Source of the DNA: Mizuhopecten yessoensis
Lineage: Eukaryota
Length of the DNA stretch: 64,000 bases
Direction: 5' to 3'
NCBI RefSeq assembly: GCF_002113885.1
Contig: NW_018405003.1
Coordinates: forward strand, 15,240 to 79,239
This document shows, in pieces, positions 1 through 46,359 of the stretch; position 1 is the stretch's first letter; every line of letters starts with the position of its first letter. A program made the translations under genes and the position numbers. The notes beneath the pieces were generated by a model. The model worked only from the letters and a program-made list of their open reading frames with translations. It was not told the DNA's origin and did not search any database.

Positions 1-1345
1 TCACTAGACTTCACCACACACTATAGACTTCCCCACATAATATACGTAGACTAGACTTCCCCACGCAGTATACACACTATAGATTTTCCCACACAGTATA
101 CACTGACTAGACTTCACCACATAGTATACACACACTAGCCTTCACAATACAGTTTACACACACTAGATTCTCCCACACAGTATACACACATTAGCCTTCC
201 CCACACAGTAAATAAACACTAGCCCTCACAACACAGTATACACACACTAGATTATCCCACACAGTATACACACTATAGACTCCCCAACACAGTATACACA
301 CACTAGACATTCCTACACAGTATATACACACTATACTTCCCTACACAGTATACACACACTATACTTTCCCACACAGTAAACACACAATATAGACTTCCCC
401 AAACATTAAACACACACTAGACTTCCAAACACAGTATATACACACTATACTTACCCACACATTAAACACACACTATACTTACCCTACAGTAAACACACAC
501 TATACTTCTCCACACAGTGTACACACACTATACTTCCCCACACAGTAAACACACACTATAGACTTCCCCACACATTATACACACACTAGACTTCCAAACA
601 CAGTATATACACACTATACTTACCCACACATTAAACACACACTATACTTACCCACACATTAATCACACACATTTACATACACACAGAGTAAACACACAAT
701 AGACTTCCCAGCACAGTATATACACACTATACTTCCCCACACAGTATACACACAATATACTTCCCCACACAGTAAACACACACTATAGACTTCCCCACAC
801 ATTATACACACACTAGCCTTCCAAACACAGTATATACACACTATACTTACCCACACATTAAACACACACTATACATACACACAGAGTAAACACACACTAG
901 ACTTCCCAGCACAGTATTTACACACTAAACGCTCTCATACAGTAAACACACACTAGAGTTCCCAACATATTATACACACACTAGACTTCCCCACACAGGT
1001 TACACACTATAGAATTCATCACAAATTATACACCACACACTAGACTTCCCAACACAGTATACACACACTAGATTCTCCCACACCGTATATACACACTATA
1101 GACTTCCCAATACAGTATACTCACAGGACTTTCCAACACATTATACACACACTAGACTTCCCAGCACATTACACACACTATATACTTCACCACACATTAT
1201 ACACACATTATACTTCCCAACACAGTATACACACTATAGACTTCCCCACTCAGTATACATACACTAGACTTTCCCACAAAGTATACACACACTAGAATTC
1301 ACCACACAGTATACACACACAAAACATCCCAACACAGTATGCATA
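1..1345. repeat. CA-rich minisatellite, ~28-bp unit (CACACAGTATACACACACTAGACTTCCC) with 30-bp variants; runs off the window start
   Basis: The AGT motif recurs at 123, 151, 179, 207 (28-bp steps). About 45 degenerate copies. The + strand is strongly C/A-biased. Confidence 0.95.
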
Positions 1346-3697
1346 TACCAGGCTTCCCTAAATTATATTTATTGGATTATGTTACTTCGACCTAATTTCC
1401 ACAATTTGCAATGCACTACTGGTCTTAAACCTACCCTATATTGTATATGGATGTATATATATAGTATGAGGAACGGTAGGAATGACACACTGTATGTCTG
1501 GTGTCATTAACCCTAAACCTGTATTATTTCTGATACTTCTAGTCCTTCCGTCATCATTCTACCCTAGAATAGAGACACTTAGGTAATTTAATCGATCTGT
1601 TCCAAACTACTGTTTATAATGCTCTTATACTTAATGCATTAGACGAACACTCACACTGGTAAATTCGGGAATCTTGAAATATCTGCCTAATGACATTTTT
1701 CGATTAGGACCTAATGCTTTTTTTCAGCTAATCGTTATATATAAATGATATGATCTGAAGTATAGGAACGTCGGCCGTATCTTTCAGTCTGAGGTAACTG
1801 TGTTGGTCTACGGTTAAATTTCGTCCAAACATCTTAAACAACTAAGGACGGCATGTATAAAGTGAATACCCAATAGTTTTGCCGATTACCAAGACATACG
1901 CTTGAGATATTTTTTGGTGCAATAAATTGTTCTTAAATACAAACACATGCTTTAAAATGTTTACCATACCATGAAAATAACTTTCAACACTACAAGAGAT
2001 CATTTGACTATTTATTGACCATACCAAAAGAAACTGTTGATTATTTTGCGTAGGGGTGCGGAAAAAAGTTCTAATTCGTTCAACTGGGGAACAAAAGCAA
2101 TGGTCTTCACGTGGGTAGACATACCGAACCTATAAAATTCATACAAAAAAATGTTCGTCTGTATCTCTGTCTGTAGGGTATGCAAAGTCGTCATCAAAAT
2201 CGTGGTTTCTCTTTGCGCTGTTACAATTAACAATTCCCGATAAGGTCATTCAGAATATCAGTAAATGGCATATTACGCTACAATGCTATTTGGATGTAAA
2301 AATGTACCGAAGGATCCCCCTCATTTCGTGGTGTCAGGACAGTTACACTTATGGCTACAAGTGATTACATTCTGCCCATATCAATTACCAATCGAAATGC
2401 TATAAAACAACGAAGACGTCAGCATTACCGTCAACAATTACTTAATCCCAGTTTCCGGAAACCTCCTACATATTGCCAATTAATGTGTGTAATGGAGGAT
2501 GTATAGCTGATCAAAACGAATCGCGTGCTTTATTCCCCCTTTGAGATAGGGTAGCGGTAAAAACCCGGTAGTGACAGTTACATTGACTGTATGTCTGTCC
2601 ATTCTCCGATCTTATCGAACAGATCACCTCCCACGCAATAGCCATGTAACGCCGCCACTGCTTATAAATACTTTCAGGCGAGTCAAGTAGTTATCTCTGT
2701 TTCACGCTAGTGAGAATCCGGTTTTTTCTAGGAATCCCTGCAGACTACACAAGCCAGCTCAGCCCTCAATATATATTGTAGCAGAAAGACATCAGCCTCA
2801 AGCTGTCCAATAATTTTGATAAAGAGCTGTCTTATCTAGGCTTAGTCTCTAGTATCCATTAGCTGTTTCATAGTTTTCAAATTTGCTCCATATCATCGCG
2901 TCAAACACAAACTACCTAATTTTCGTTGACTATACTTGCGTTCTATATTCTTATCACACAATGCATTGTTACAGTATGTAGTAAATATTTAAAGAATTTT
3001 AATCGGTAATGACTCTGCCTAATCCACTTGTATATATGTTACTATAAAATAAAATTAATTGTAGTAATATACCTTATCTTTATGAAGGTTTAAATGATAC
3101 TACATAATAAAAATATTGCTTTTCATGTTTTTCGTCGTGACATGGTAAGGAACTCCGAGATTGTTGCGACAAATAATTGATATAGGTTTGTTAATCAGAT
3201 ATAATGTGATAAAAAAAAAGATATTAAATGATATTTATATTCAACTGGAAACTCACCCAAAATGAGTATTTATATAATTGTTTATGAAATATCGAGATCT
3301 ACGTTTTAATTTGTATTCGTCTAAGTCTCTCCGAAAATAAAATCTTGAAGGCATATTTTACAAATCGCTTAAAATGGAGGCGTTAAGATTTATTTTTGCT
3401 TGCCTACTGGACACTGATATTCTCGTTTTAAATCTGCCAAAATAATGTATCCGGACCTCGGATATGAATAACGGACTATGTCACGTGCTGTACAATGAAA
3501 CTACGGGTAATATGACGTCACGAACGTGCAATGTAACTGCTAAAACGTGATAATACAGCAGAATCTTTACCATTCGGTTGAGATTCCCGTGTATATACCC
3601 CCCACAGAGCTGATTTATTCTGTTCGTGAAACTGTAAAGACCGGGGATGGGGGCTATTCTTTAAGTTGTTATATGTTAGATACAATTGTAACCTTGT

Positions 3698-4646
3698 AAC
3701 ATGCCACAAACACCTTGGTGTCTTTATTTCGTCTAATGGAGGGTGGACTGATCATGTTCAGTATATAATTAACAAAGCTTCAAAAAAAATAGGCCTCCTA
3801 AGAAAACTGAAATTTACTATTGACAGAAAAACGCTTCTAACTATTTATTTTACTTTTATTCGACCTTTGTTAGAATATGGTGACGTGATATGGGACAATA
3901 TAACGATAGGCCAAAGCCACCTGATAGAAAATATTCAACTCGAAGCAGCCAGGATTGTAACTGGGGCTACTAAATTTACAAGTCATGAGAGATTGTATTT
4001 AGAAACTAGTTGGGACTCTCTTATTGAAAGAAGACGAAAACAGAAAATAACACAACTTCATAAGATTGTTCATGGTCAGTGTCCCTCCTATTTAACTAAC
4101 ATACTCCCCGCTCGTCATTCTGACATTCATTCTCACGATACTAGAAACGCGAATAAATTCTGTCAAATAAGATGTCGTACTAAACTCTATAAAGATTCTT
4201 TTCTACCTGCCTCTGTTGACTTATGGAATGCTCTTCCGGATGACGTTAAGGATAACCCATCACTCACTAACCTTAAGAAGTCCGTGAAAGTCGACTATCA
4301 TCACAATAATCGTGTTCCATCCTATTACTATTACTGCAAAAGTAGATTTGGCCAAATTCACCACGATCGACTGAGGATGAACTGTAGTTTCCTTAAAAAT
4401 CACTTATTTTTACGTAACTTAGTTGAAAGTCCCATGTGTTCTTGTAACCGTTCTGCTGAAACTACTGAACTCTTTCTCCTCTTTTGTCCTAACTTCGAAC
4501 AATTAAGATTACAATGTTTTAGAAATCTTCCTCATGGGAATAATTTAAATCTGCTGCTGTATGGAAATCCTGATATGCCAGATCAATATAACTTAAATAT
4601 GTTTGACTCTGTCCAACAATCTATCTGTCAGTCGAAACGATTTTAG
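3698..4646 (+). pseudogene. Truncated LINE ORF2 (RT thumb and C-terminal domain; endonuclease and RT catalytic core absent)
   Basis: Open frame of ~315 codons starting just before the KHLGV motif. The ORF-track start at 3666 lies in flanking DNA upstream of the TSD. Confidence 0.85.
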
Positions 4647-5209: not shown

Positions 5210-5705
5210 ATAAGGATCTCTGCTTTACCTCTCGAAAAAACACTAGAGAATCGCACTGTATTTTTCCCACATAGTGTAATCTCCCCCTAATTTCGTTTCA
5301 GATATAATCTCCCCCTAATTTCGTTTCAGATATAATCTCCCCCTAATTTCGTTTCAGATATAATATCCCCCTAATTTCGTTTCAGATATAATCTCCCCCT
5401 AATTTCGTTTCAGATATAATCTCCCCCTAATTTCGTTTCAGATAAAGCCGGAGTGTGACTGGGCCAGAGTGATAGCTTACATCAGGAAGAGCAGTTGGTT
5501 TTAGCGGCAGTATCATGATCGAAGGTCAATGGTTCGAATCTTGGTCAGCCACATTGCATTTTTACACGCAGGATATTTTCGTAGTTTTTTTCCATGTCAT
5601 AATTATGTTTTCATAAAGTGACGATTTGTCAAACTATATTTATGTTTGTAAAAAAAGATTTTATGTATCGACAAAGATGTTTGGCAGTGGTGTGGGGATC
5701 CTTAA
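5210..5705 (+). mobile_element. Kolobok-like non-autonomous DNA transposon (MITE), copy 1, carrying a tRNA-like segment
   Basis: Termini ATAAGGATCTC ... GGGGATCCTTAA form imperfect TIRs (TTAA then purines). B-box GGTTCGAATC at ~5531. Homologous to 15021-15375 in the opposite orientation. Confidence 0.65.
5277..5444. repeat. 28-bp minisatellite (AATCTCCCCCTAATTTCGTTTCAGATAT) x6
   Basis: Near-perfect copies at 28-bp spacing (CTCCCCC at 5281, 5309, ...). Confidence 0.97.
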
Positions 5706-11694: not shown

Positions 11695-12773
11695 GCTTAT
11701 TTTGAATTGATTTGAACAAACAATTGTTTATTTAGAATTGATTTGAACAAACAAATGCTTATTTTGAATTGATTTGGACAAACAAATGCTTATTTAGGAT
11801 GGATTTGAACAAACAAATGCTAATGCTTATTTTGAATTGATTTGGACAAACAAATGCTTATTTAGAATGGATTTGAACAAACAAATGCTAATCCTTATTT
11901 TGAATTGATTTGAACAACAAAATCATTATTAAGAATTGATTTGGACAAACAAATGCTTATTTAGAATTAATTTGGACAAATGAATGCTTATTAAGAATTG
12001 ATTTATACAAACAAATGTCCAAAAAGAATTGATATGAATAGCAAATGCTTAATTAAAATTGATTTGGACAAGCAAATGCTGATTTAGAATGGATTTGAAC
12101 AAAAAAATGCTTATTTAAAATGGATTTGGACAAACAAATGTCGATAAGGAATTGATATGAACAGCAGATGTTTATTAAGAATTGATTTGAACAAACAAAT
12201 GCTTATTTAGAATTAAATTGAACAAACAAATCCTTATTTTGAATTGATTTGGACAAACAAATGTTCTTTTAGAATGGATTTGAACAAACAAATGCTAATG
12301 CTTATTTTGAATTGATTTGGAAAAACAAATGCTTATTTAGAATTGATTTAGACAAACAATGTTTTTCAGAATGGATTTGAACAAACAAATGCTGATGCTT
12401 ATTTTGAATTGATTTGGACAAACAAATGTTTTTCAAGAATTGATTTGAACAAACAAATGCTTATTTAGAATTGATTTGAACAAACAAATGCTAATCCTTA
12501 TTTAGAATGGATTTGAACAAACAAATGCTTATTTAGAATGGATTTGGACAAACAAATGTCCATTAGGAAGTGATATGAACAACAAATGCTTATTTAGAAT
12601 TTATTTGGACAAACAAATGCTTATTTAGAATTGATTTGGACAAATAAATGCTTCATAAGAATTGATTTGAACAAACAAATGTCCATAAAGAATTGATATG
12701 AACAGCAAATTCTTATTAAAAATTGATTTGGACAAGCAAATCCTTATTTAGAATTGATTTGAACAAACAATTG
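11695..12773. repeat. 31-bp minisatellite (GAATTGATTTGAACAAACAAATGCTTATTTA), ~34 copies, some units with a short ATGCTA-type insertion
   Basis: Obvious tandem periodicity across 1.08 kb. Confidence 0.97.
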
Positions 12774-22297: not shown

Positions 22298-22642
22298 TAA
22301 TAAATGATAATAACGATAATAATATTTGGAGGTTCTTATATACCGCTTTATCACAACCTAGTTTGTAGGTCGTCTCAAAGCGGTTCACAAATTATTATCC
22401 ATGGTTATAGGGCTTTTGCAACCAGCCTGGGGACCATACAGCCAGTGCTGCCATTTCGGCGCTCACAACTAGCATTCAACAATTCTAGCACTGCCCAACC
22501 ACGTACTCGTTTACAGTTGAGTAGACTGGAACAAGCAGAGTAAAGTATCTTGCTCAAAAATACAATACAGTGCCGTGGCGCGACTCGAACCCGCAACCTT
22601 TCGGTCACAAGCCCGGTGTTCTACCACTAGACTACCGTACCT
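22298..22642 (-). mobile_element. tRNA-derived CORE-SINE, full length
   Basis: Minus strand: A-box TAGTCTAGTGG, B-box GGTTCGAGTC, CORE-like TTGAGCAAGATACTTTACTC..CCAGTCTACTCAACTGTAAA, L2-like tail GAACCGCTTTGAGAC..AAGCGGTATATAAG and a (TTA)n-like end. Confidence 0.88.
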
Positions 22643-23202
22643 GCACAAAAGGAGCATCGTGTCTGCAGGGGGGCACAACTATCGGTTTTTCCGAGTTTAT
22701 TCTATGTTATTGTCCGTGAACATGAATGCTCACAATAGCAAGATATGTCATTTGTGGGGGGGAATATAAAACCCGCTTTTCCATGATACAGCCAAACCAG
22801 AACGTTTTTAAACTTCGATTAGAATTGAAATTGAACTAAAATCATTTTTTGAATTCGTAAAATAATTCGTAGATAAATCTTTGATTTTAGGAAAGCAAAA
22901 GTAAAATATACTTCAGTATGTGAAACATCGTATACACAAGAACAAGATCAGAATTCGAAGTTGACATGACAACAATGGAAACGTCGAGACATCAAAATAA
23001 AAGGAGATAAGAGGGACAGAGGAGACACTAAAACCTAATGAAACGACAGGGGCGGAGGAGAAACCACATCAAAACTTAAACAACAGAAATCGAGGATACA
23101 ATAAAGACAGAAAACGACAGGAGCAGCGGAGAAATCAAATCAAAAGCTTAAATCAGAGCTAAACAGACTCAATGAGAAGCCAACAACAAGAACTGAGAAG
23201 AC

Positions 23203-23381
23203 ACAATAATAACGAAACAACAGGAACAGAGCAGACACAATAAAAAGTTAAACAACAGGAACAGAGCAGACACAATAAAAAGTTATACAACAGAAACTGA
23301 GCAGACACAATAACAAATTAAACAACAGATACTGAGCAGACACAATAAAAAGTTAAACAACAGGAACTGAGCAGACACAAA
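23203..23381. repeat. 35-bp minisatellite (AACAACAGGAACAGAGCAGACACAATAAAAAGTTA), ~5 copies, preceded by more degenerate related units from ~22980
   Basis: CAGGA at 23221 and 23256, and so on. Confidence 0.92.
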
Positions 23382-23829: not shown

Positions 23830-24420
23830 GTCATGAACTTGGGGTATTCACTAACCAATTCTGCATATACATCATATCATAGTGATCTACGAAAGGCCAT
23901 AACGAATTTGTCGTCTATACCTTTCACTGAAGCGAAAACAGGGCCGCTTTGTCGGAAAATCACGCTAGAAGGGCACAACTTATCGATTATTTGTCAGCTT
24001 AACTATACTGTGAGAAAAAGCTATCGTTTTGAAAGGAAGTAACAATGATGAAGTGGCATGCCTGTCATGTTAAAGAGATTGTTTCAAATACATTATCATG
24101 TTTGTTTCCAAAAACAAAGAAAGCTTATTTGGCCAAATATGTAGGAATAGTTAGTAGAAGATGGCAAACTATTGAATTTAGTCAATTGTATCTAGTGCTT
24201 GTCGTTAATACATTAAAATGTCCTCATCAAAATATTATTTTATTATTTACTTCATTATTTTTTTTAGCAGTGCAATATATCTCCCTACGCTTCTAGGAGT
24301 AGGTCTGGGAGTAGTGCATATATGTTGTTGCTTATTTGTAAACTGTCTGTTGCACTGTTTATATGTACAACTAATGAGCTGTACAGCTTAAGGTAATTAA
24401 AGCGCTATAACTTGAACTTG
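23830..24420 (+). mobile_element. Highly degenerate LINE 3' end (CR1/L2 group)
   Basis: Fragments LRKAITNLSS..EAKTG and LAKYV resemble the LINE ORF2 C-terminus. The 3' end has hairpin AGCTGTACAGCT and an (AACTTG)2 tail. Several frameshifts. Confidence 0.4.
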
Positions 24421-24847: not shown

Positions 24848-24990
24848 TAGAGGATCTGACATAAGTTTCCGTTTCATATGATGTTTATGGAACGAGTCAA
24901 AGAATTAAACTTTTAGCGAGCACCGGCGATTTATAGTTACTCATTATGATGAGTTTTATAAATCTCATAGAAATGAAAGAGAATGCAATT
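24848..24990. mobile_element. Degenerate palindromic non-autonomous element (Crypton-like, tentative)
   Basis: TTTCATATGATGTTTATGGAACGAGT ... GAGTTTTATAAATCTCATAGAAATG imperfect inverted arms around a GCGAG core. Confidence 0.35.
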
Positions 24991-25704: not shown

Positions 25705-26268
25705 GTACAAAGTGTGGTATCGGGTCTCTCTGATACCGAGTCCAATACTTCACTGTAAACGCAATACGTGCATTTATTATAAAATAATCAGGTCGTTGAA
25801 CTTCACATGTCACTATTTTATTCAAAAGGGTTGTTTGTGTTCATGATATTTAAACTGCAAAAATTATAGACAAAAAAACATAACTTCATAATAGAATAAT
25901 TGTAAACGGCAAAATTCCTGGTGCTTATTAAGTAGATATAAAACCACAGAGATAGTATTTCTTAGATAAGAATGTTTGTTTAAAATATCTGGTATTTTTT
26001 TCCGAAATGGTAGTTAAGGTTAATGTGAAATATATATATTCTCTGATGCAAGATTATAATTGGTACAGTCTTAACATCCGTAAATATGTAAATAAGTAAA
26101 TATTGCCTAAACAGAACAAGCTGAACAAATTATTTTCTCTTCTCGCATACAATTTTATGCATATTTCCACTGGTATCTCTTACAGGTATCACTATTAGCC
26201 TACCCAAAGGACCTAATGTCAGTCATAAGTAGTAAAATATACCAAGCGTGAAACACCAGTGTAGATTC

Positions 26269-29200
26269 TATACCAGGGGGACTGATGTCAGTATTCAGTC
26301 ATACCCGGAGGACTGACGTCAGTATTCAGTCATACCAGGAGGACTGACGTCAGTATTCAGTCATACCAGGGGGACTGACGTTAGTATTCAGTCATACCAG
26401 GGGTACTGACGTTAGTATTCAGTCATACCAGGGGGACTGACGTCAGTATTCAGTCATCCCTGGAGGACTGACGTCAGTATTCAGTCATACCAGAGGGACT
26501 GACGTTAGCCTTCAGTCATACCTGGGGGACTGACGTCAGTATTCAATTATACCTGGAGGACTGACGTCAGTATTCGACGTTAGTCTTCAGTCATACCTGG
26601 GGGACTGACGTCAGTATTCAGTCCTACCTGGAGGACTGACATCAGTATTCAGTCATACCCGGAGGACTGACGTCAGTATTCAGGCATACCAGGAGGACTG
26701 ACGTCAGTATTCAGTCATACCTGGGGGACTGACGTTAGTATTCAGTCATTCCAGGGGGACTGACGTTAGTATTCAGTCATACCAGAGGGACTGACGTTAG
26801 CCTTCAGTCATACCTGGGGGACTGACGTCAGTATTCAGTCACACCTGGAGGACTGACATCAGTATTCAGTCATACCCGGAGGACTGACGTTAGTCTTCAG
26901 TCATACCAGGGGGACTGACGTTAGTCTTCAGTCATACCCGGGGGACTGACGTTAGTCTTCAGTCATACCAGGGGGACTAACGTCAGTATTCAGTCATACC
27001 TGGGGGACTGACGTTAGTATTCAGTCATACCTGGAGGACTAACGTCAGTAATCAGTCATACCAGGGGGACTGACGTTAGTATTCAGTCATACCAGGAGGA
27101 CTAACGTCAGTAATCAGTCATACCAGGGGGGCTGACGTTAGTATTCAGTCATACCAGGGGGACTGACGTCAGTATTCAGTCATACCTGGGGGACTGACGT
27201 TAGTATTCAGTCATACCTGGGGGACTGACGTTAGTATTCAGTCATACCTGGGGGACTGACGTTAGTATTCAGTCATACCTGGGGGACTGACGTTAGTATT
27301 CAGTCATACCAGGAGGACTAACGTCAGTAATCAGTCATACCAGGGGGACTGACGTTAGTATTCAGTCATACCAGGGGGACTGATGTCAGTATTCAGTCAT
27401 ACCAGGAGGACTGACGTCAGTATTCAGTCATACCTGGGGGACTGACGTCAGTATTCAGTCATACCTGGAGGACTCACGTCAGTATTCAGTCATACCAGAG
27501 GGACTGACGTTAGCATTCAGTCATACCTGGGGGACTGACGTCAGTATTCAGTCATACCCGGAGGACTGACGTTAGTATTCAGTCATACCAGGAGGACTGA
27601 CGTCAGTATTCAGTCATACCTGGGGGACTGACGTCAGTATTCAGTCATACCTGGGGGACTGACGTCAGTATTCAGTCATACCTGGAGGACTGACGTCAGT
27701 ATTCAGTCATACCTGGAGGACTGACGTCAGTATTCAGTCATACCTGGGGGACTGACGTCAGTATTCAGTCATACCTGGGGGACTGACGTCAGTATTCAGT
27801 CATACCTGGAGGACTGACGTCAGTATTCAGTCATACCTGGAGGACTGACGTCAGTATTCAGTCATACCTGGAGGACTGACGTCAGCATTCAGTCATACCT
27901 GGGAGACTGACGTCAGTATTCAGTCATACCCGGAGGACTAACGTTAGTATTCAGTCATACCAGGAGGACTGACGTCAGTATTCAGTCATACCCGGAGGAC
28001 TGACGTCAGTATTCAGTCATACCAGGAGGACTGACGTCAGTATTCAGTCATACCAGGGGGACTGACGTCAGTATTCAGTCATACCTGGGGGACTGACGTC
28101 AGTATTCAGTCATACCTGGAGGACTGACGTCAGTATTCAGTCATACCCGGAGGACTGACGTTAGCATTCAGTCATACCAGGGGGACTAGCGTCAGTATTC
28201 AGTCATACCCGGAGGACTAACGTTAGTATTCAGTCATACCAGGGGGACTACCGTCAGTATTCAGTCATACCTGGGGGATTGATGTAAGTATTCAGTCATA
28301 CCCGGAGGACTGGCGTTAGAATTCAGTCATACCAGGGGGACTACCGTCAGTATTCAGTCATACCTGGAGGACTGACGCCAGTATTCAGTCATACCCGGAG
28401 GACTGACGTTATCATTCAGTCATACCAGGGGGACTGACGTCAGAATTCAGTCATACCTGGGGGACTGACGTCAGTGTCAGTATTCAGTCATACCTGGGGG
28501 ACTGACGTCAGTATTCAATTATACCTGGAGGACTGACGTCAGTATTCAGTCATACCCGGAGGACTGGCGTTAGCATTCAGTCATACCAGGGGGACTAGCG
28601 TCAGTATTCAGTCATACCTGGGGGAGTGATGTCAGTATTCAGTCATACCCGGAGGACTGACGTCAGTATTCAGTCATACCTGGGGGACTGACGTCAGTAT
28701 TCAGTCATACCTGGGGGAGTGACGTCAGTATTCAGTCATACCCGGAGGACTGGCGTTAGCATTCAGTCATACGAGGGGGACTAGCGTCAGTATTCAGTCA
28801 TACCCGGAGGACTGACGTTAGTCTTCAGTCATCCCTGGGGGACTGACGTCAGTATTCAGTCATGCCTGGAGGACTGACGTCAGTATTCAGTCATACCAGG
28901 GGGACTGATGTTAGTCTTCAGTCATACCTGGGGGACTGATGTCAGTATTTAGTCATACCCGGAGGACTGACGTCAGTATTCAGTCATACCAGAGGGACTG
29001 ACGTTAGTCTTCAGTCATCCCAGGGGGACTGACGTCAGTATTCAGTCATACCAGAGGGACTGACTTTAGTCTTCAGTCATACCTGGGGGACTGAGGTCAG
29101 TATTTAGTCATACCCGGAGGACTCACGTCAGTATTCAGTCATACCAGAGGGACTGACGTTAGTCTTCAGTCATCCCAGGGGGACTGACGTCAGTATTCAG

Positions 29201-30595
29201 TCATACCAAGAGGGCTGACGTCAGTATTCAGTCATACCAGGGGGTCTGATGTTAGTCTTCAGTCATACCTGGGGGGCTGATGTCAGTATTTAGTCATACC
29301 CGGAGGACTCACGTCAGTATTCAGTCATACCAGAGGGACTGACGTTAGTCTTCAGTCATTCCTGGGGGACTGACGTCAGTATTCAGTCATACCAGGGGGA
29401 CTGACGTTAGCCTTCAGTCATACCAGGAGGACTGACGTCAGTATTCAGTGATACCAGGGGGACTGACGTTAGTATTCAGTCATACCTGGGGGACTGACGT
29501 TAGTATTCAGTCATACCAGGGGGACTGATGTCAGTATTCAGTCATACCCGAAGGACTGACGTCAGTATTCAGTCATACCTGGGGGACTGACGTCAGTATT
29601 CAGTCATACCTGGAGGACTGACATCAGTATTCAGTCATACCCGGAGGACTGACGTTAGCATTCAGTCATACCAGGGGGACTGACGTCAGTATTCAGTCAT
29701 ACCTGGGGGACGGACGTTAGTATTCAGTCATACCAGGGGGACTGATGTCAGTATTCAGTCTTACCCGGAGGACTGACGTCAGTATTCAGTGATACCAGGG
29801 GGCCTGACGTTAGTATTCAGTCATACCAGGAGGACTAACGTCAGTAATCAGTCATACCAGGGGGACTGATGTCAGTATTCAGTCTTACCCGGAGGACTGA
29901 CGTCAGTATTCAGTCATACCAGGAGGACTGACGTTAGAATTTAGGCATACCAGGGGGACTGACGTTAGTCTTCAGTCATACCTTGGGGACTGACGTCAGT
30001 ATTCAGTCATACCTGGTGGACTGACGTCAGGGGACTGATGTCAGTATTCAGTCTTACCCAGTCTTCAGTCATACCAGGGGGACTGACGTCAGTATTCAGT
30101 CATACCTTGGGGACTGACGTCAGTATTCAGTCATGCCTGGTGGACTGACGTCAGTATTCAGTCATACCAGGGGGCCTGACGTTAGTCTTCAGTCATACCT
30201 GGGGGACTGACGTCAGTGCTCAGTCATACCTGGAGGACTAACGTCAGCATTCAGTCATACCTGGGAGACTGAAGACAGCATTCAGTCATACCTGGTGGTC
30301 TGACGTCAGTATTCAGTCATACCTGGAGGACTGACGTCAGTATTCAGTCATACCTGGGGGACTGACGTTAGTATTCAGTCATACTTGGGGACTGACGTTT
30401 GTATTCAGTCATGTCAGGGGGACTGATATCAGTCTTCAGTCATACCTGGGGACTGACGTCATTATTCAGTCCTACCTGGGGGACTGGCGTCAGTATTCAG
30501 TCATACCTGGGGGACTGACGTCAGTATTCAGTCATATCTGGAGGACTGACGTCAGTATTCAGTCATACCTAGAGGACTGACATTAGTGTTTAGTT
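26269..30595. repeat. 31-bp satellite/minisatellite (GTCATACCTGGGGGACTGACGTCAGTATTCA), ~140 copies, 4.3 kb
   Basis: Continuous 31-bp periodicity (for example CAT at 27181 and 27212). Many units contain the palindrome ACTGACGTCAGT. Confidence 0.99.
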
Positions 30596-31337
30596 GTATC
30601 ATCGAAAACCATACGCGAATATACGCTAAACCTTTTCTTCTTTTACTAAAAGTAGCTTTTCAAACTTTGCAAATATGCCTTGACATCATGTCTATTTGTT
30701 TCAGTGCGTAGTCACAATGTTATGACATCACGACTCTTGTCTGGATTATGACCTCACAATTGGTACATTAACAAATATGTAAAATTATGATTTGGTTGTA
30801 TTCAAAGTATAACGAGGTAATCGTGGGATAATTGTTACTCATTTTCTTGGTTCAGAAGTCTACCCTTAAACTACGTTCTCTGTGTGAAAATATCTTTAAA
30901 CATAATCAATACTATCTCAAAGAATCAAGTTTTTGTTTAGTGAAACTTTACCCACACATTTGAACCTCAATATCCTACTGAATGATCGCATGTATGCTAA
31001 CTGTATTAATATCAAAAGAATGTTCCGATAACCTCTGATCCGAAAGTATTGCCCTCCATACTACGCACATCGAAATACACATAAATGTCGTTCTGGCGGG
31101 TTTTCCAGCCCTACCTCTTCCCCAGCGTAATCAGCATAACTTGGAATTATAGTACATGCAATCAATACTAGGTTTATGTGTTTTATTGAAATGTCCTTGT
31201 GACCTGTATTTCATAAATCAATGTAGTTATTATTTTTGTTCTTTAGTTTACGTGTTCATGACTGCGTTAGCTTTCGACCTCATGCATCCACATCCAGTAA
31301 ATGTGGCTAATCATACGATTCATCATTCATTCAGTCA

Positions 31338-35654: not shown

Positions 35655-36178
35655 TGTCCCTGCAGGTAGGGCGTAAGAAAGGTACCTGCTACCCCCATTG
35701 CATGATCGTACGAGGCGACTTAATCTGGGATCTTTTCTTTTATCTTCTTTCTAAACAACTTTCTTTTTCCTAATGTCTCCCTTGAGAATGCCTCACTTTT
35801 GGCCTTTAGTTGAGCGTTCGAGCTTTGGGTTCTGTCCCCTGGCCGAGACATACCAGAGTCTGTAAAAATGGTAGTTTCTTCTCCTGCATAACGCTCACCA
35901 ATTTAGGAGTGGGACGACTGGTTCGCCCGTAGTCTGTATAATGTGACCAGATGGGTTGTCCTGCTGGGTGTCTTCGGCAGTATGTTTCAGTTAGGTAGCT
36001 CTATAAAGTCGGCATCAGTTCCACGCTATCACAAGGAGACAAACACGAACATATCGCAGCCTTGCAAAACACACATGCAAACACTACACGTCTACATCTT
36101 GCATACAGGGGAGGCCGTCCATAAATGACCATAGCTGTTGATAGGACGTTTAACAATACTAAAACAAACCAAACCAAA
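35655..36178 (+). mobile_element. Composite tRNA-derived SINE: Deu/Nin-like 5' block + pyrimidine tract + tRNA-like head + Meta/MESC-like domain + (AAACC)n tail
   Basis: CCCCATTGCATGATCGTACGAGGCGACT block; AAAAATGGTAGTTTC..GACTGGTTCGCCCGTAGTCTGTATAATGTGACC central domain; tail AAACAAACCAAACCAAAC; flanking direct repeat TCACTAAACA at 35645-35654 and 36183-36192. Confidence 0.85.
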
Positions 36179-39100
36179 CATTTCACTAAACAGCACCGCC
36201 ACACTAAATATAAGCAATACAAATATTCCCAAGAGGTTCTCCAAGCGAAACAAAGATGAATGAGTTGGAACCATCATCTAGTCAAATACATACGATTTAT
36301 AGGCTAAAGAACATTTCCTATAACACAGAGAGTTTGACTTTGGATTATAATCTGTAAGCTTACGTTATCACGAAGTGGCATGACCATTTCAAGCTTCTGA
36401 AAATATTTGAGATATCGTTTGCACAGTTACAGATATAAGGCATAACAAGCTATTACAATTTTCTCAACATATAGATATCAAGTTAGTTTTGAACAAAAAC
36501 AGTAATAGGAAACTTGTTATTGCGAGTTTTTTTCAAGTAAAGGGTGTAAATTGCGTGCGCATTCTTTATACATAATTTAATGATGCATGCAAATGACATG
36601 GTCTTTACATCTGGAACACATTTCATCTCGTTTAGATTCACAAATGCATTCAACACATGAAACAGTCAATGTGTACATATGGGTTCAAGGATGTAAGAAA
36701 ATAAATAATTTTCCATTTTATTTAACTTCACATTGTATATATATATATTTATAAACTGAGTTGTTTTCATTTCCGCAAAACTTTGACTAACTTAAATAAG
36801 TTTTCCAAATTGATTTTTTTGTTTTTTACGTTTTTAATGTCATCATCTTGGCATCGATTCGCCGAAGAAATGTCATGGCGTCATAATTCTGACGTCACAA
36901 AGGGTGATTTACATATATTACAGGATGAAATAAAGAAAAAACAATCAGAAACGTATCCCTGCAAAACAAGGTACTCTGTGGTTAAGACTCCCGCAGGTTC
37001 GAGAAAAGAATAAGTCTTTCTCATCCCATATCACGCTGTTGTAACAGGGAGATTGTGTGTGCGCCTCTGTCGAGTCGAGGATTTCGTCTGTGTCTCTTCG
37101 GCTGTGGGGGCATTAAAGAAACTAACACTGATTCACTGATGCACTGGTGAAACTGCAACACTTTGAATATGCAACCGTATCTCCCTAGGCATCCGTCTAC
37201 ATATGACATTTTCCTGTTGCACGACCGTCAAACTTCATAATGTACAAACCTGTGTTAAATCGGTATATGGAATTAAATGGTTTAACCGAACCCTCTCTTC
37301 TGGAGCCAATAACACGTGTCTGTAGAGGAATTGTAAGGTGAAATGTACCATCAAAACACTTGATATTCGGGAGTGGCACGTGAAGTGTTTACACTTCGAC
37401 AACAATATTTGTTCAGTGAAATAATAGGTCGACGCCTTAGCAAACAGCACATTGTATCATACGTACTTGTCTTGTATATTCTGATACAATGATATACGTT
37501 TTGTCCATGTTCCATCCATTAATACATGATAGCTAAGCTACTGTCGTGGACTGTAGGCTTGTCAGCTGCGGCTGGTTTACCAGGGACGTTCCGATTGACC
37601 TCTAGAGAGTTCTTAATAGGCAAACATGTAAAAGTATTTATAAGAATAGTTTATGTGAGCGCATTGTTCGGGGCACGTTATCAGAAGTAAAAGTGAGCGT
37701 ATTGTTAACAGCATTTCATTAATGGCCTATTGTAATGTTCTAAATTCTTTCGGGTTCGAGTAGATTTTAATTAACATTTGTAGACTTACAGAAGTATGCA
37801 CCCATCTGCCTCGTGTTTTATAAACCTGTAGCACCTGCTGACTTGTCTGTAGGTTCATACTGTACGTCAGGCTGGTCAATTAGGACACTGACCAATGCTG
37901 TTATTTACTCAGCGCTACTAGTTGCTTGCATGCACCATTAATGTACAGGATATTATTATGATATGCCTTGAAAAGAAGAAAAAGAAGAAAAAATAATACT
38001 GCAGAACAACCAATATTTCAAACTTGAGTGAAGCATCGCATTCACGTACTACACGAAGATTTCTACATCACCTAGCCACTAGCGAATGATTCTGTCGATT
38101 TGCTAACATGGGTACATATTAGAAGTGCAACTAAAACAGTCTTTATTTCTTCATGAATGCTAGTCTTGCAATTAAATACACGTGGCGATGATTGCATCTC
38201 TTTCACTTAATTTGTTTCCTATTTTGATTCACATCCAATAACATTAATATATTTCTCTTAATTTTTTGACATTTTACAGTTCTTTGTTCCAGCCACCGCA
38301 TATCTATCATACATTGGTTATGGGTGGTTTTTTTTTTCATTTTTAACCTCTGTAGCATATTTACATGTAGAGATAGTTTACATTATAACTATTCAATTCA
38401 GGTGCGTAGCTTACATGTGATCAAGCATGCAGTTATATACACATTGCAAATCCTTAAATGTACCATTTATTTTGTATTTATTGTGTGTGGTCCAGAAGAT
38501 AATAGGTTAAAATATTACTTCTTTCAACATATTTCCTTGGTTAATAATAGTATCCCTTCTTCAAAACTTCTGACCTCCTAAAGGGATTTTTTTTTACAGA
38601 AAAAAAGTGTTTCTTATGATCACTTATAAGTTTTATAACGACATCACATGACTGTAAGACAGTGACGTCATTGAATTGCTTTATTGTGACGTCACAAATG
38701 CATGTAAGTTGCCTGCTCGCCTGCATCTCCATGGATTGACAGACAACACAGCCAAAAATAAAATCAGAAAGACATTAGTCAAGGGTAGGAACAATATTGG
38801 TCCTGTACTAAAGATAATATCCTTGTACGCTATATGTCTCACGTGTCAATCACTTTCATTCGTAACGAAGGCGGCTGGGTTAGCGAAGCTTTGTTGGATT
38901 GTAATGTAGTATATACTATCTATAATTATCTCATATAAAACATCTACAGTGCTATACAATATATGTGTATATATATACTTTCCAGAGTTTGCTTGGAAGG
39001 GTTTCTGTCGACAGATAGGACATATGATCACCTTTGTGATTTAATAGATTCATCATATTGCTTAGCTGAAGGTAAGCAATGGAGTCTAATCGAATTTAAA

Positions 39101-41413: not shown

Positions 41414-42126
41414 AACTTACTGGAGATGCACCATCACCAACTGTCTTGCTACAATACCTGCAATAACATCATAGTAGGTGTCGGACAACATCCACACAAT
41501 CACCCGGGAGATCAAGCCAGCATTGTGCCAAGGAGATCATGAACTCCATTACTGACCGCTGCCAGCAAGAAATTAGACCAATTCCTACCATCTACAATGA
41601 GGAACTCTATAAACTGCGAGACGACGAATGGGATGATGAGACAAGAGCCGTTGTGGAGAAGATACCCACCTTCAACACTTTGAAATCTCAACTGTACAGA
41701 GCTAGACGCAAGCTAACACCAAAGCTACCAACCACAACCCAGGACATTGAAATCGAGGGAAGATGGACAGAAACCACTACTGGAGAGCGCTTCTTGCACA
41801 TTGACGATGGGGACCAATGCAGAATCCTCGCCTTCGCCACCTCAGAGAACTTAGCTGACCTTGCTACAGCTGACTGCATCTACTTCGATGGAACCTTCTA
41901 CACCTGTCCTAGCATCTTCCATCAGATCTACACCATACACATCGAGATAGAGAGATCCATTGACCCAGTCGTATACGCCCTTCTACCCGGGAAAAGCCAA
42001 CACATCTATACTAGATTCTTCACACTTCTGCAGACATTAATGACAGACAACAACCTACCCATGATGCCAACCACTGCATTCGTAGACTTCGAACAGCTGT
42101 CCACAACGCCATCCGCACCGTCTTCC
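41414..42126 (+). pseudogene. Mutator-like (MULE) transposase fragment with FLYWCH zinc finger; frameshifted and 3'-truncated
   Basis: After acceptor TTTCTTTCAG (41413): TYWRCTITNC..HPHNHP (FLYWCH). ORF 41539-42252 has DGTFYTCP..FHQIYTIH..PVVYALLPGKS..Y..FF and DFE. A frameshift after DFE continues AVHNAIRTVF, then homology stops. Confidence 0.9.
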
Positions 42127-43004
42127 TCTGACACCATATATAACTCCCTTCCAGTTAATCCGAGACCGGATACATTTACGTATTCGGATGTTTCCTTTGT
42201 ACACGTTGAACGCATATTTCATCAATCGAACAATCATTATTTTACATGTTAATTTCATAAAAAAAGAGTTGTTTTTGTGACAAGTGAAATACAATTTATG
42301 TTGATAGGGTTATCGAAAAAGCAGGTTCCATAACCAAATGAAATAAGCAGAAGGCATACACAGGTAAGCGTCACGAGGACTTGTCTTCACACCATCTATA
42401 GGTTCATCATTTTTGCATATTCGTACTCATTTAAATTATTCTAAATCTTTAACAAAATTACAATATACTTCGAACACGAAGAAAAACAGAAAAACAGAAA
42501 AGCATAGGGGATGGCGTGGTTAAGTGTAATGTCCTTCTGTTTGTCGATTCAGGAGGAAGACAATTTTACCATAACAAAACTTAAAGTGGGGATTCAAATT
42601 TTGGAAAGTTTTTATTCATATTGTCCTTGTGGATAATGAATCCTTCTAATGAACAGAACATATGATATAATAAATATTTGATAAAAGTATTTTAAATCTT
42701 ATTGGATATATACGAAAATCAAAGTGAATCAGAGTTGTATGAAAACAATGGAGTCTATCTGACCTTTTTTCCGTTTACAGGACATCCCTCTTTAAAGAGT
42801 GTATAACCTGAGTATGTTTTCACCAATTGATTTTAAAACATTACTAATAAATACAAATATTGTGAATTTAAAAACGTTGTTTGAGATTGAAGACGTACTT
42901 TCCGAACGTTTTTTTTTTGTCTGTGCTTCATTAATTAATTAATTAACTTTATTTATTGATTTTATTTTATATTTTTTATTTCAATTTATTTGTTTTTATT
43001 TATA

Positions 43005-45370: not shown

Positions 45371-46359
45371 ACGTGTATTACCACAGAAAACCCACCCAGT
45401 TTACTTTAGACCACATATAGTCGTTCTGGAGGAAACCATGTAAAGATTATAAATTTAGTACAATCCTTGAGCAAATACTTTTATTTTATCTTTCAGAAAT
45501 ATATCATAAAACAAAATAAGTGTGCGGTTGAACACAACAAATCCATATGGGCTACACTTAAATTATACACACCATGAGTACAAGTTTTAGACCTGTTTAT
45601 TAAAACAATGGCAAAAAGGACATACAATTTGTTTACAACTTGTGTAATGCACGAGGCAAAATTATCAACTCGTACATTGTGCCAAAAGGTTTAGACAAAG
45701 AACACTATCTCCGCCATTAGTAACAAGGTTTTACTACCTCTATAGAATAATAATAAAAAAACTATCATATTGTCAGATTTGTTTTTATAAATTTAAAACC
45801 ACAAAGGGAATTCTATGTATCAAAACGGAAAATGAACATGTATCAAACCAAATCATATGAAGAACTTAATTTTGCAGCAGAAGATTTATTATGGAAACGC
45901 TACAAATGGCTTCCTTTATACCTGCAATAGACTGCAAAGGATAAACGTCAGACACACTTTATATTTGGTAATAGATACGCCTTGCCAATACAAAAAGTAC
46001 ACTGCACCAATCAGCTGAAAGATACTTACCTATCAGAAGTACAAGTCAATATTTGCGTATGAGATAAACATCACGTTTGATTTGCATGAACTTTGATTGT
46101 GATTATAATAATTTAAAAAAAGCAATGCAACAGTGACTACAACAGCGACAGGCCGATGCAGTAAAAGGTTGTAAAATGACAAAATAACAGGAAATGAAAT
46201 CACCTTACATAATACTTTTAATTGCATAGGTTAGTATTCAAAAGCAGAAGACAGTAAATAATCAACAAAGTATTGCTTGTTTTGATAACATAATAGCATA
46301 ACAATAAATGTGATTGTGTAAGAAAAAATGATATGTTAGAGTTGTGCATTTCTATGTGT

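What the first reader, a model, noticed from the sequence alone, without database searches (positions are those of the whole stretch)
26269..30595. 4.3-kb satellite that is a phased array of CRE palindromes
Seen: ~140 units of 31 bp. A large share carry the 12-bp palindrome ACTGACGTCAGT and most others the one-base variant TGACGTTA. Established: TGACGTCA is the full CREB/ATF (bZIP) consensus site, and binding is blocked by CpG methylation. 31 bp is about three helical turns, so the sites would lie on roughly one face of the helix. Inference: the array could act as a length-polymorphic cAMP/stress-responsive enhancer or as a bZIP sink. This is the best candidate here for an undescribed regulatory element, but a neutral origin is equally possible.
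Basis: partly seen in the sequence, partly recalled or inferred. Interest (0 to 1): 0.7.

Follow-up and report, generated by a model that had tools for sequence, protein, structure and literature searches.

The report
Scallop minisatellite carrying CRE motifs
A 31-base unit repeated 139 times in a scallop genome carries a CREB-type binding motif in under half its copies; it is likely an ordinary minisatellite that multiplied a motif already very common in this genome, and any effect on the stress-response gene Nrf2/NFE2L 52 kb away is untested.

Summary
The array is real: 139 units of 31 bp at 26270-30595; 62 carry TGACGTCA, 55 the 12-bp palindrome, 34 TGACGTTA (44% of the other 77, not most). 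It is a single-locus minisatellite, not a satellite family. The special reading fails each sequence test I could run. (1) The CRE is no better kept than the rest of the unit (identity 0.914 vs 0.928). (2) TGACGTCA occurs 64,042 times in this genome, so the array holds 0.1% of sites and is a negligible sink. (3) CRE-bearing minisatellites are common at in-phase and out-of-phase periods alike (18 vs 16 loci; 12 loci at 31 bp, 10 at 28 bp), about as many as chance predicts. (4) At 10.5 bp/turn the sites drift 17 degrees per unit. Most likely it grew in place from local sequence by ordinary tandem-repeat turnover. What keeps a regulatory role open: most CpGs are intact, the region is CpG-rich, no gene was found in it, and the nearest gene found is the CNC-bZIP gene Nrf2/NFE2L, 52 kb downstream. 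Binding, enhancer activity and length variation are untested.

The parts
26270..30595 (.). Minisatellite, 139 units of 31 bp (an exact consensus-type unit lies at 26593-26623). Each unit has one CRE position; variants are interspersed, with three main polymorphic positions (unit positions 6, 9 and 20; position 20 lies inside the CRE).
27585..28142 (.). Most homogeneous block (units 43-60): 17 of 18 units carry a perfect CRE, with short runs of identical units (likely the most recent expansion; inferred)
   Evidence: units 41-60 differ from consensus by 1.2 bases on average against 2.1-3.1 elsewhere
26189..26230 (+). Decayed unit-like sequence in the left flank, without a perfect CRE; possible relic of the seed or of an older array edge
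   Evidence: local score 23; P=0.006 against shuffles, 0.022 against other window DNA; weak
30605..30663 (+). Start of the unique right flank; in 2 of 4 sequencing runs a second contig joins it to sequence absent from the assembly (likely a second haplotype with another right junction)

Best explanation
This is a single-locus 31-bp minisatellite that likely grew in place, by ordinary tandem-repeat turnover, from a stretch that happened to hold TGACGTCA, and it likely has no selected regulatory role. Shown: one locus, unique flanks, interspersed unit variants, a CRE that decays as fast as the spacer, and many other CRE-bearing arrays of other periods in the same genome. Inferred: growth by slippage, unequal exchange or gene conversion, possibly helped by fold-back between the palindromes of neighbouring units. 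CREB/ATF proteins would probably bind unmethylated copies in vitro (established specificity, recalled), but that would be a by-product.
For: Core identity 0.914 vs 0.928 outside; estimated changes per position 3.1 vs 2.8 (P=0.65); the CRE is perfect in 44% of 132 regular units against 53% for 8 random columns (7 of 139 irregular or gapped units left out). The CRE-breaking C>T at unit position 20 has spread to 45 of 139 units. TGACGTCA occurs 64,042 times genome-wide against 16,126 for the reversed word. Minisatellites run at 100 per 0.5 Mb in 51 sampled regions, about 197,000 genome-wide; about 280 of period 18-48 are expected to hold a CRE by chance. Triple-CRE matches number 1193 against 678 for the control word, a ratio of 1.8 where the single-word ratio is 4.0. 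Loci in contigs up to C1997, this array left out: 18 in phase, 16 out of phase, p=0.86. Whole genome: 12 loci at 31 bp (about 8 independent units) and 10 at 28 bp. Other long CRE arrays: 37 bp x 44 with 34 CREs, 28 bp x 80 with 32 CREs, 45 bp x 25 with 17 CREs. Longer single-locus minisatellites (about 10 kb) are published for this species (PMC4856933, Table 1).
Against: With 62 CREs it is the richest of the CRE arrays I measured (25 fetched loci scanned; most such loci were not measured). CpG decay at the CRE is slight (5.9% transitions, against up to 40% in other CRE arrays), and the region has CpG o/e about 0.85 against about 0.5 in the NFE2L gene body, so methylation likely does not block the sites. 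The nearest gene found is a stress transcription factor. Triple-match counts are higher in phase than out of phase for the CRE (272 vs 193) and less so for the control (269 vs 249), though a few long arrays dominate these counts. In the 11 other long CRE arrays the core is better kept than the spacer in 6, equal in 1 and worse in 4 (these were found through intact CREs, which biases towards the core). Lack of selection within the array does not exclude an effect of the cluster as a whole, since many redundant sites relax selection on each one.
Confidence: 0.8

Rival explanations
1. Neutral in origin but now an incidental distal enhancer, or a repressed enhancer: the 62 full sites and the half-sites recruit CREB/ATF dimers and loop to an NFE2L promoter 52-65 kb away, so alleles differ in stress or cAMP response.
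For: A homotypic cluster of similar size to the human MORC3-restricted repeats (up to 61 motifs; PMC13373173 abstract). CpGs mostly intact in a CpG-rich region; scallop CG methylation lies mainly in gene bodies (PMC13333978 passages). No protein-coding gene found between the array and NFE2L. A second haplotype with another right junction in 2 of 4 runs.
Against: The first coding exon is 52.5 kb away, whereas CREB binding and CREs concentrate just upstream of start sites in human cells (PMC2774331 passages). In the MORC3 study only two of the motif-rich repeats activated neighbouring genes (section 13). The genome holds 64,042 CREs and an estimated few hundred CRE arrays. Gene finding here was ORF plus Pfam only (150 of 193 window ORFs, some more), so small exons, untranslated exons or lncRNAs may be missed.
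Confidence: 0.14
2. A selected, helically phased CRE array, kept so that bZIP dimers line up on one face of the DNA.
For: 31 bp is 2.95-3.04 turns, and almost all units keep exactly 31 bp. 31 bp was the commonest period in the first partial list.
Against: The 31-bp excess vanished in the whole-genome list (12 loci, about 8 independent, vs 10 at 28 bp). In-phase vs out-of-phase loci 18 vs 16. Only 45% of units keep the site and the core is not conserved. The window holds another 31-bp array with no CRE (11695-12770). Constant unit length is what whole-unit turnover gives anyway.
Confidence: 0.03
3. A bZIP sink that titrates CREB/ATF away from promoters.
For: High local density: 62 CREs in 4.3 kb against one per about 15.5 kb genome-wide.
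Against: 0.1% of the genome's perfect CREs (62 of 64,042); single locus.
Confidence: 0.01
4. The central repeat of a non-autonomous transposon (Helitron- or MITE-like), as recalled for many bivalve tandem repeats.
For: Dispersed repeat families with three or more CREs exist in this genome. 86 bases of the right flank are 74% alike to an 84-bp array on another contig.
Against: Both flanks are otherwise unique; the nearest interspersed repeats found in held DNA lie at 22298-22638 and 35656-36180, with short repeated patches near 24100-24400 and 24850-24900. The unit occurs nowhere else.
Confidence: 0.02

Closest known systems
Single-locus minisatellites of the Yesso scallop (PMC4856933; passages and section 6 with Table 1 read)
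   Same: Period in the same range (published 20-114 bp), one chromosomal site, kilobases long.
   Different: Shorter than the published examples (4.3 kb vs about 10 kb); its unit holds a CRE.
Human TRIB3 promoter 33-bp VNTR with a C/EBP-ATF element (PMC7425993; abstract and outline read)
   Same: About three-turn unit holding a bZIP site, multiplied in tandem next to a stress-response gene.
   Different: TRIB3: 1-5 copies in the promoter, unit conserved across mammals, copy number shown to raise expression. Here: 139 copies, 52 kb from the first coding exon, core not conserved, no function shown.
MORC3-repressed tandem-repeat enhancers, IFNB1-MRE (PMC13373173; abstract and section 13 read)
   Same: Tandem repeat forming a homotypic cluster of tens of motifs.
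   Different: Motifs are PU.1/SPI, AP-1 and SP/KLF, with binding and enhancer activity shown; most such repeats had no effect on neighbouring genes. Nothing functional is shown here.

Membership tests
Minisatellite (single locus) | Head-to-tail unit of about 10-100 bp, array of up to some kilobases | tested here: met
   31 bp x 139, 4.3 kb
Minisatellite (single locus) | One locus with unique flanks | tested here: met
Minisatellite (single locus) | Interspersed variant units with local duplications | tested here: met
   73 distinct types among 132 regular units; repeated runs of 2-4 identical units
VNTR | Copy number differs between alleles | not testable with these tools
   Only short-read contigs were on offer and only the flanks were laid; a junction difference was seen, length was not
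Satellite DNA family | Many copies in long arrays or at many loci | tested here: not met
   53 of 53 exact pattern matches lie in this array; unassembled copies cannot be excluded
Tandem-repeat enhancer / expression VNTR (TRIB3, IFNB1-MRE type) | Homotypic cluster of transcription-factor motifs | tested here: met
   62 full CREs; 113 of 139 units with a half-site
Tandem-repeat enhancer / expression VNTR (TRIB3, IFNB1-MRE type) | Motif conserved above the rest of the unit | tested here: not met
   0.914 vs 0.928; P=0.65 and 0.38
Tandem-repeat enhancer / expression VNTR (TRIB3, IFNB1-MRE type) | Element or motif conserved at the orthologous place in related species | not testable with these tools
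   No relative genomes are held for this genome
Tandem-repeat enhancer / expression VNTR (TRIB3, IFNB1-MRE type) | Factor occupancy, reporter activity, copy number tracks expression | not testable with these tools
   Needs chromatin, reporter or genotype-expression data
Promoter-proximal CRE element | Lies close to a transcription start site | tested here: inconclusive
   Nearest coding exon found is 52.5 kb away; untranslated exons and lncRNAs could not be mapped
Helically phased site array | In-phase periods preferred over out-of-phase ones | tested here: not met
   18 vs 16 loci, p=0.86; 12 loci at 31 bp vs 10 at 28 bp
CRE-type MARE / ARE (CNC-sMaf site; consensus recalled) | GC dinucleotide flanking the core on the outer side | tested here: not met
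   Units read GT after the core; 1 of 62 CRE units (unit 52) has GC, on one side only, so no sign of an NFE2L feedback site
Transposon-embedded tandem repeat (bivalve Helitron/MITE type; recalled) | Flanks and unit recur at many loci | tested here: not met

The most novel reading that the evidence does not exclude
The array is a structurally polymorphic, unmethylated cluster of about 60 CREB/ATF sites that acts as a distal enhancer of the scallop's Nrf2/NFE2L gene, so that array alleles tune the oxidative-stress response of an aquaculture species: an expression VNTR in a mollusc, one of some hundreds of CRE arrays that this CRE-rich genome makes by chance.
Probability: 0.1. Interest if true: 0.55.

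Novelty: new member of a known kind. Interest (0 to 1): 0.15.

Why it matters
As a neutral minisatellite it matters little; at most it is a marker near Nrf2/NFE2L. If it did regulate that gene, it would be a heritable tuning element for stress tolerance, missed by SNP typing, and would extend expression VNTRs to molluscs. The result also sets a baseline for this scan: in this genome a CRE inside a tandem repeat is expected by chance, at any period.

Tried and rejected
Phasing: an apparent peak at 31 bp in the partial list did not hold in the whole-genome list (its pattern can miss arrays that have G after the CRE on both strands). The best-kept 8-mer of the unit is TCAGTCAT (90%), one base from an AP-1 site (recalled); a window this well kept is not clearly unusual (P=0.07), so I do not read it as a motif. 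ARE/MARE feedback by NFE2L: flanks do not fit. Coding role: no ORF of 90 aa or more in the array. Pfam scans of 150 and 76 ORFs found only a MULE relic in the window, plus two weak hits below cut-off that I take as chance. No Rfam match in the window. Sequencing runs: 16 listed, one organism, shares 0.10-0.18, no RNA holder listed; this is no evidence on expression or on other species. Holes in contig cover prove nothing. Fold-back: CRE-perfect stretches fold with z about -5 and a variant stretch with -2 to -3, against -0.7 and 0.0 for two non-palindromic arrays; any array of palindromes does this, so it is only compatible with hairpin-aided growth. Literature searches listed no paper on this array or on a CRE excess in scallop genomes; the library is open-access only, I saw listings and abstract starts for most hits, and I read no supplements. 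Earlier scan notes near this place: none.

Full report
Observation. The array is there. TRF gives period 31 and 138.5 copies; my alignment gives 139 units from 26270 to 30595. 62 of 139 units carry TGACGTCA, 55 the 12-bp palindrome and 34 TGACGTTA, which is 44% of the remaining 77 rather than most. 113 of 139 keep a half-site and 119 of 139 keep the CpG. All 53 exact matches of a unit pattern in the 988-Mb assembly lie in the array. The left flank matches only itself; the right flank matches itself and, over 86 bases at 74%, an 84-bp array elsewhere. It is a single-locus minisatellite.

Setting. The window is G000:C1676:15240-79239. Scans of 226 ORFs from the window and neighbouring contig stretches found no host gene in the window, only a MULE transposase relic; not all ORFs were scanned, and short exons would be missed. 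Downstream lies a CNC-bZIP gene whose last exon is 100% identical to a protein that the database names NFE2L1/Nrf2-like of Mizuhopecten yessoensis, the Yesso scallop. Its three alternative first coding exons map at contig 98,312, 109,403 and 110,312; the array ends at 45,834, so the gap is 52.5 kb. Upstream of the window the contig is mostly N. CpG o/e is about 0.85 across the window's non-array DNA and 0.46-0.55 over the gene body. This fits gene-body methylation as reported for this species (PMC13333978, passages) and suggests, by inference, that the array region is little methylated.

Is the CRE conserved? No. In 132 regular units (7 irregular or gapped ones left out) mean identity is 0.914 in the core and 0.928 outside. 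A spanning-tree estimate gives 3.1 vs 2.8 changes per position, P=0.65. The CRE is perfect in 44% of these units against 53% for random sets of eight columns. One of the three most variable positions lies inside the CRE, and its site-breaking T is in 45 units. Redundancy among many sites could hide weak selection, so this refutes selection on each site, not every effect of the cluster.

Is a CRE in a minisatellite surprising here? No. TGACGTCA occurs 64,042 times against 16,126 for the reversed word. It is the most over-represented 8-mer palindrome in the window outside the array, 10 seen against 0.75 expected, and 3.4-fold over a third-order Markov model in 51 sampled regions with tandem repeats masked. 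The same sample holds 100 minisatellites in 0.5 Mb, 24 of them 1 kb or longer and 1 of 4 kb or longer; 2 of the 100 have a CRE in the unit. About 280 arrays of period 18-48 should carry a CRE by chance. Three CREs in a row at 10-40 bp gaps occur 1193 times, the control word 678 times, a smaller excess than for the single word. These matches include tandem arrays and dispersed multi-CRE repeat families. Examples: 37 bp x 44 with 34 CREs, 28 bp x 80 with 32, 45 bp x 25 with 17, and a 31-bp array on C5593 with 19 perfect CREs in a row. This array has the most CREs of those I measured, but it differs in size, not in kind. As a sink it holds 0.1% of sites.

Phasing. Triple matches, CRE vs control: periods 25-28, 43 vs 61; 30-33, 116 vs 112; 35-38, 150 vs 188; 40-43, 156 vs 157. 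Matches are dominated by a few long arrays, so I counted loci in the contig range listed by all four searches (up to C1997), leaving this array out: 18 in phase, 16 out of phase, p=0.86. An apparent peak at 31 bp prompted an exact search: 12 loci genome-wide, about 8 independent units by eye, against 10 loci at 28 bp. At 10.5, 10.4 or 10.2 bp per turn the sites drift by -17, -7 or +14 degrees per unit, so only near neighbours share a face.

How it likely arose. A decayed unit-like stretch without a perfect CRE lies 40-80 bases left of the array (P=0.006 and 0.022, weak). The middle block is the most homogeneous, with short runs of identical units, and the right end is the most diverged. This is the pattern expected from slippage, unequal exchange and conversion (mechanisms as reviewed in PMC6947457, passages). 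Single strands fold back between palindromes (z about -5), which may help but follows from the palindrome alone. CpG transitions at the CRE are 5.9%, above the median of other C/G positions (1.5%) but not their mean (7.0%), and far below the 24-40% seen in 4 of 11 other long CRE arrays.

Other animals. Contigs of four DNA runs from four studies were laid on the flanks only. In X11 a contig runs from the left flank into the start of the array; in X1, X4 and X9 a contig runs over the right end on the array side. In X1 and X4 a second contig joins the right flank at 30605 to at least 484 and 174 bases whose last 30 letters are found neither in the window nor in the assembly. The same two runs show two versions of 26091-26225, with 0 and 5 differences. 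A second haplotype with a different right junction is the simplest reading; whether it keeps the array, and at what length, is not shown.

Comparison and verdict. It is a member of the single-locus minisatellites, for which longer examples are published in this species (PMC4856933, Table 1). It resembles in layout the TRIB3 33-bp VNTR (PMC7425993, abstract) and the MORC3-restricted motif-cluster repeats (PMC13373173, abstract and section 13). It fails the core-conservation test, no start site is known near it, and even among the human repeats only two activated neighbouring genes. CREB binding favours the region just upstream of start sites (PMC2774331, passages). Earlier unchecked notes of this scan reached similar readings for CRE arrays in abalone and a shark-like fish; they are not independent support. 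Verdict: ordinary minisatellite, 0.8; incidental distal enhancer of NFE2L, 0.14; selected phased array, sink or transposon repeat, about 0.06 together. Interest 0.15.

Noticed in passing
G000, whole genome: TGACGTCA is four times as common as its reverse (64,042 vs 16,126), mostly in purine-CRE-pyrimidine context. The cause is unexplained; my two searches listed no paper on it. This may be of more interest than the array.
   Followed up: partly
G000:C90, C112, C201, C230, C294, C309, C428 (L075-L077): Dispersed repeat family carrying three or four CREs within about 100 bp; two copies are 97% alike over 528 bp. A mobile element that spreads CRE clusters is possible.
   Followed up: partly
G000:C249:76086-76967 (L074), C167, C367: A second triple-CRE family; on C249 two copies face each other about 800 bp apart, as in a MITE with CREs in its terminal inverted repeats.
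   Followed up: partly
G000:C657, C1812, C5481, C76591: One 31-bp CRE-bearing unit family forms short arrays at four loci, suggesting spread by a mobile element.
   Followed up: no
G000:C1676:98312-126352 (L054-L057): CNC-bZIP (Nrf2/NFE2L) gene with three alternative first coding exons, preceded by about 80 kb in which no gene was found.
   Followed up: yes
window 30605-30663 and 26091-26225: Two haplotypes in runs X1 and X4; one has sequence absent from the assembly at the array's right junction.
   Followed up: partly
window 41467-42249: MULE transposase relic (Pfam PF10551, E=7e-4, below cut-off).
   Followed up: no
window 3630-4646: 338-aa ORF that looks like the C-terminal part of a LINE retrotransposon protein (recalled resemblance; no Pfam hit).
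   Followed up: no
window 16-1358, 5277-5444, 11695-12770, 23182-23380: Four more minisatellites (periods 28, 28, 31, 35), none with a CRE in the consensus.
   Followed up: partly
L062:8708-10000 (C1676 about 178 kb): Long ORF with a RING zinc finger, TRIM-like in appearance.
   Followed up: no
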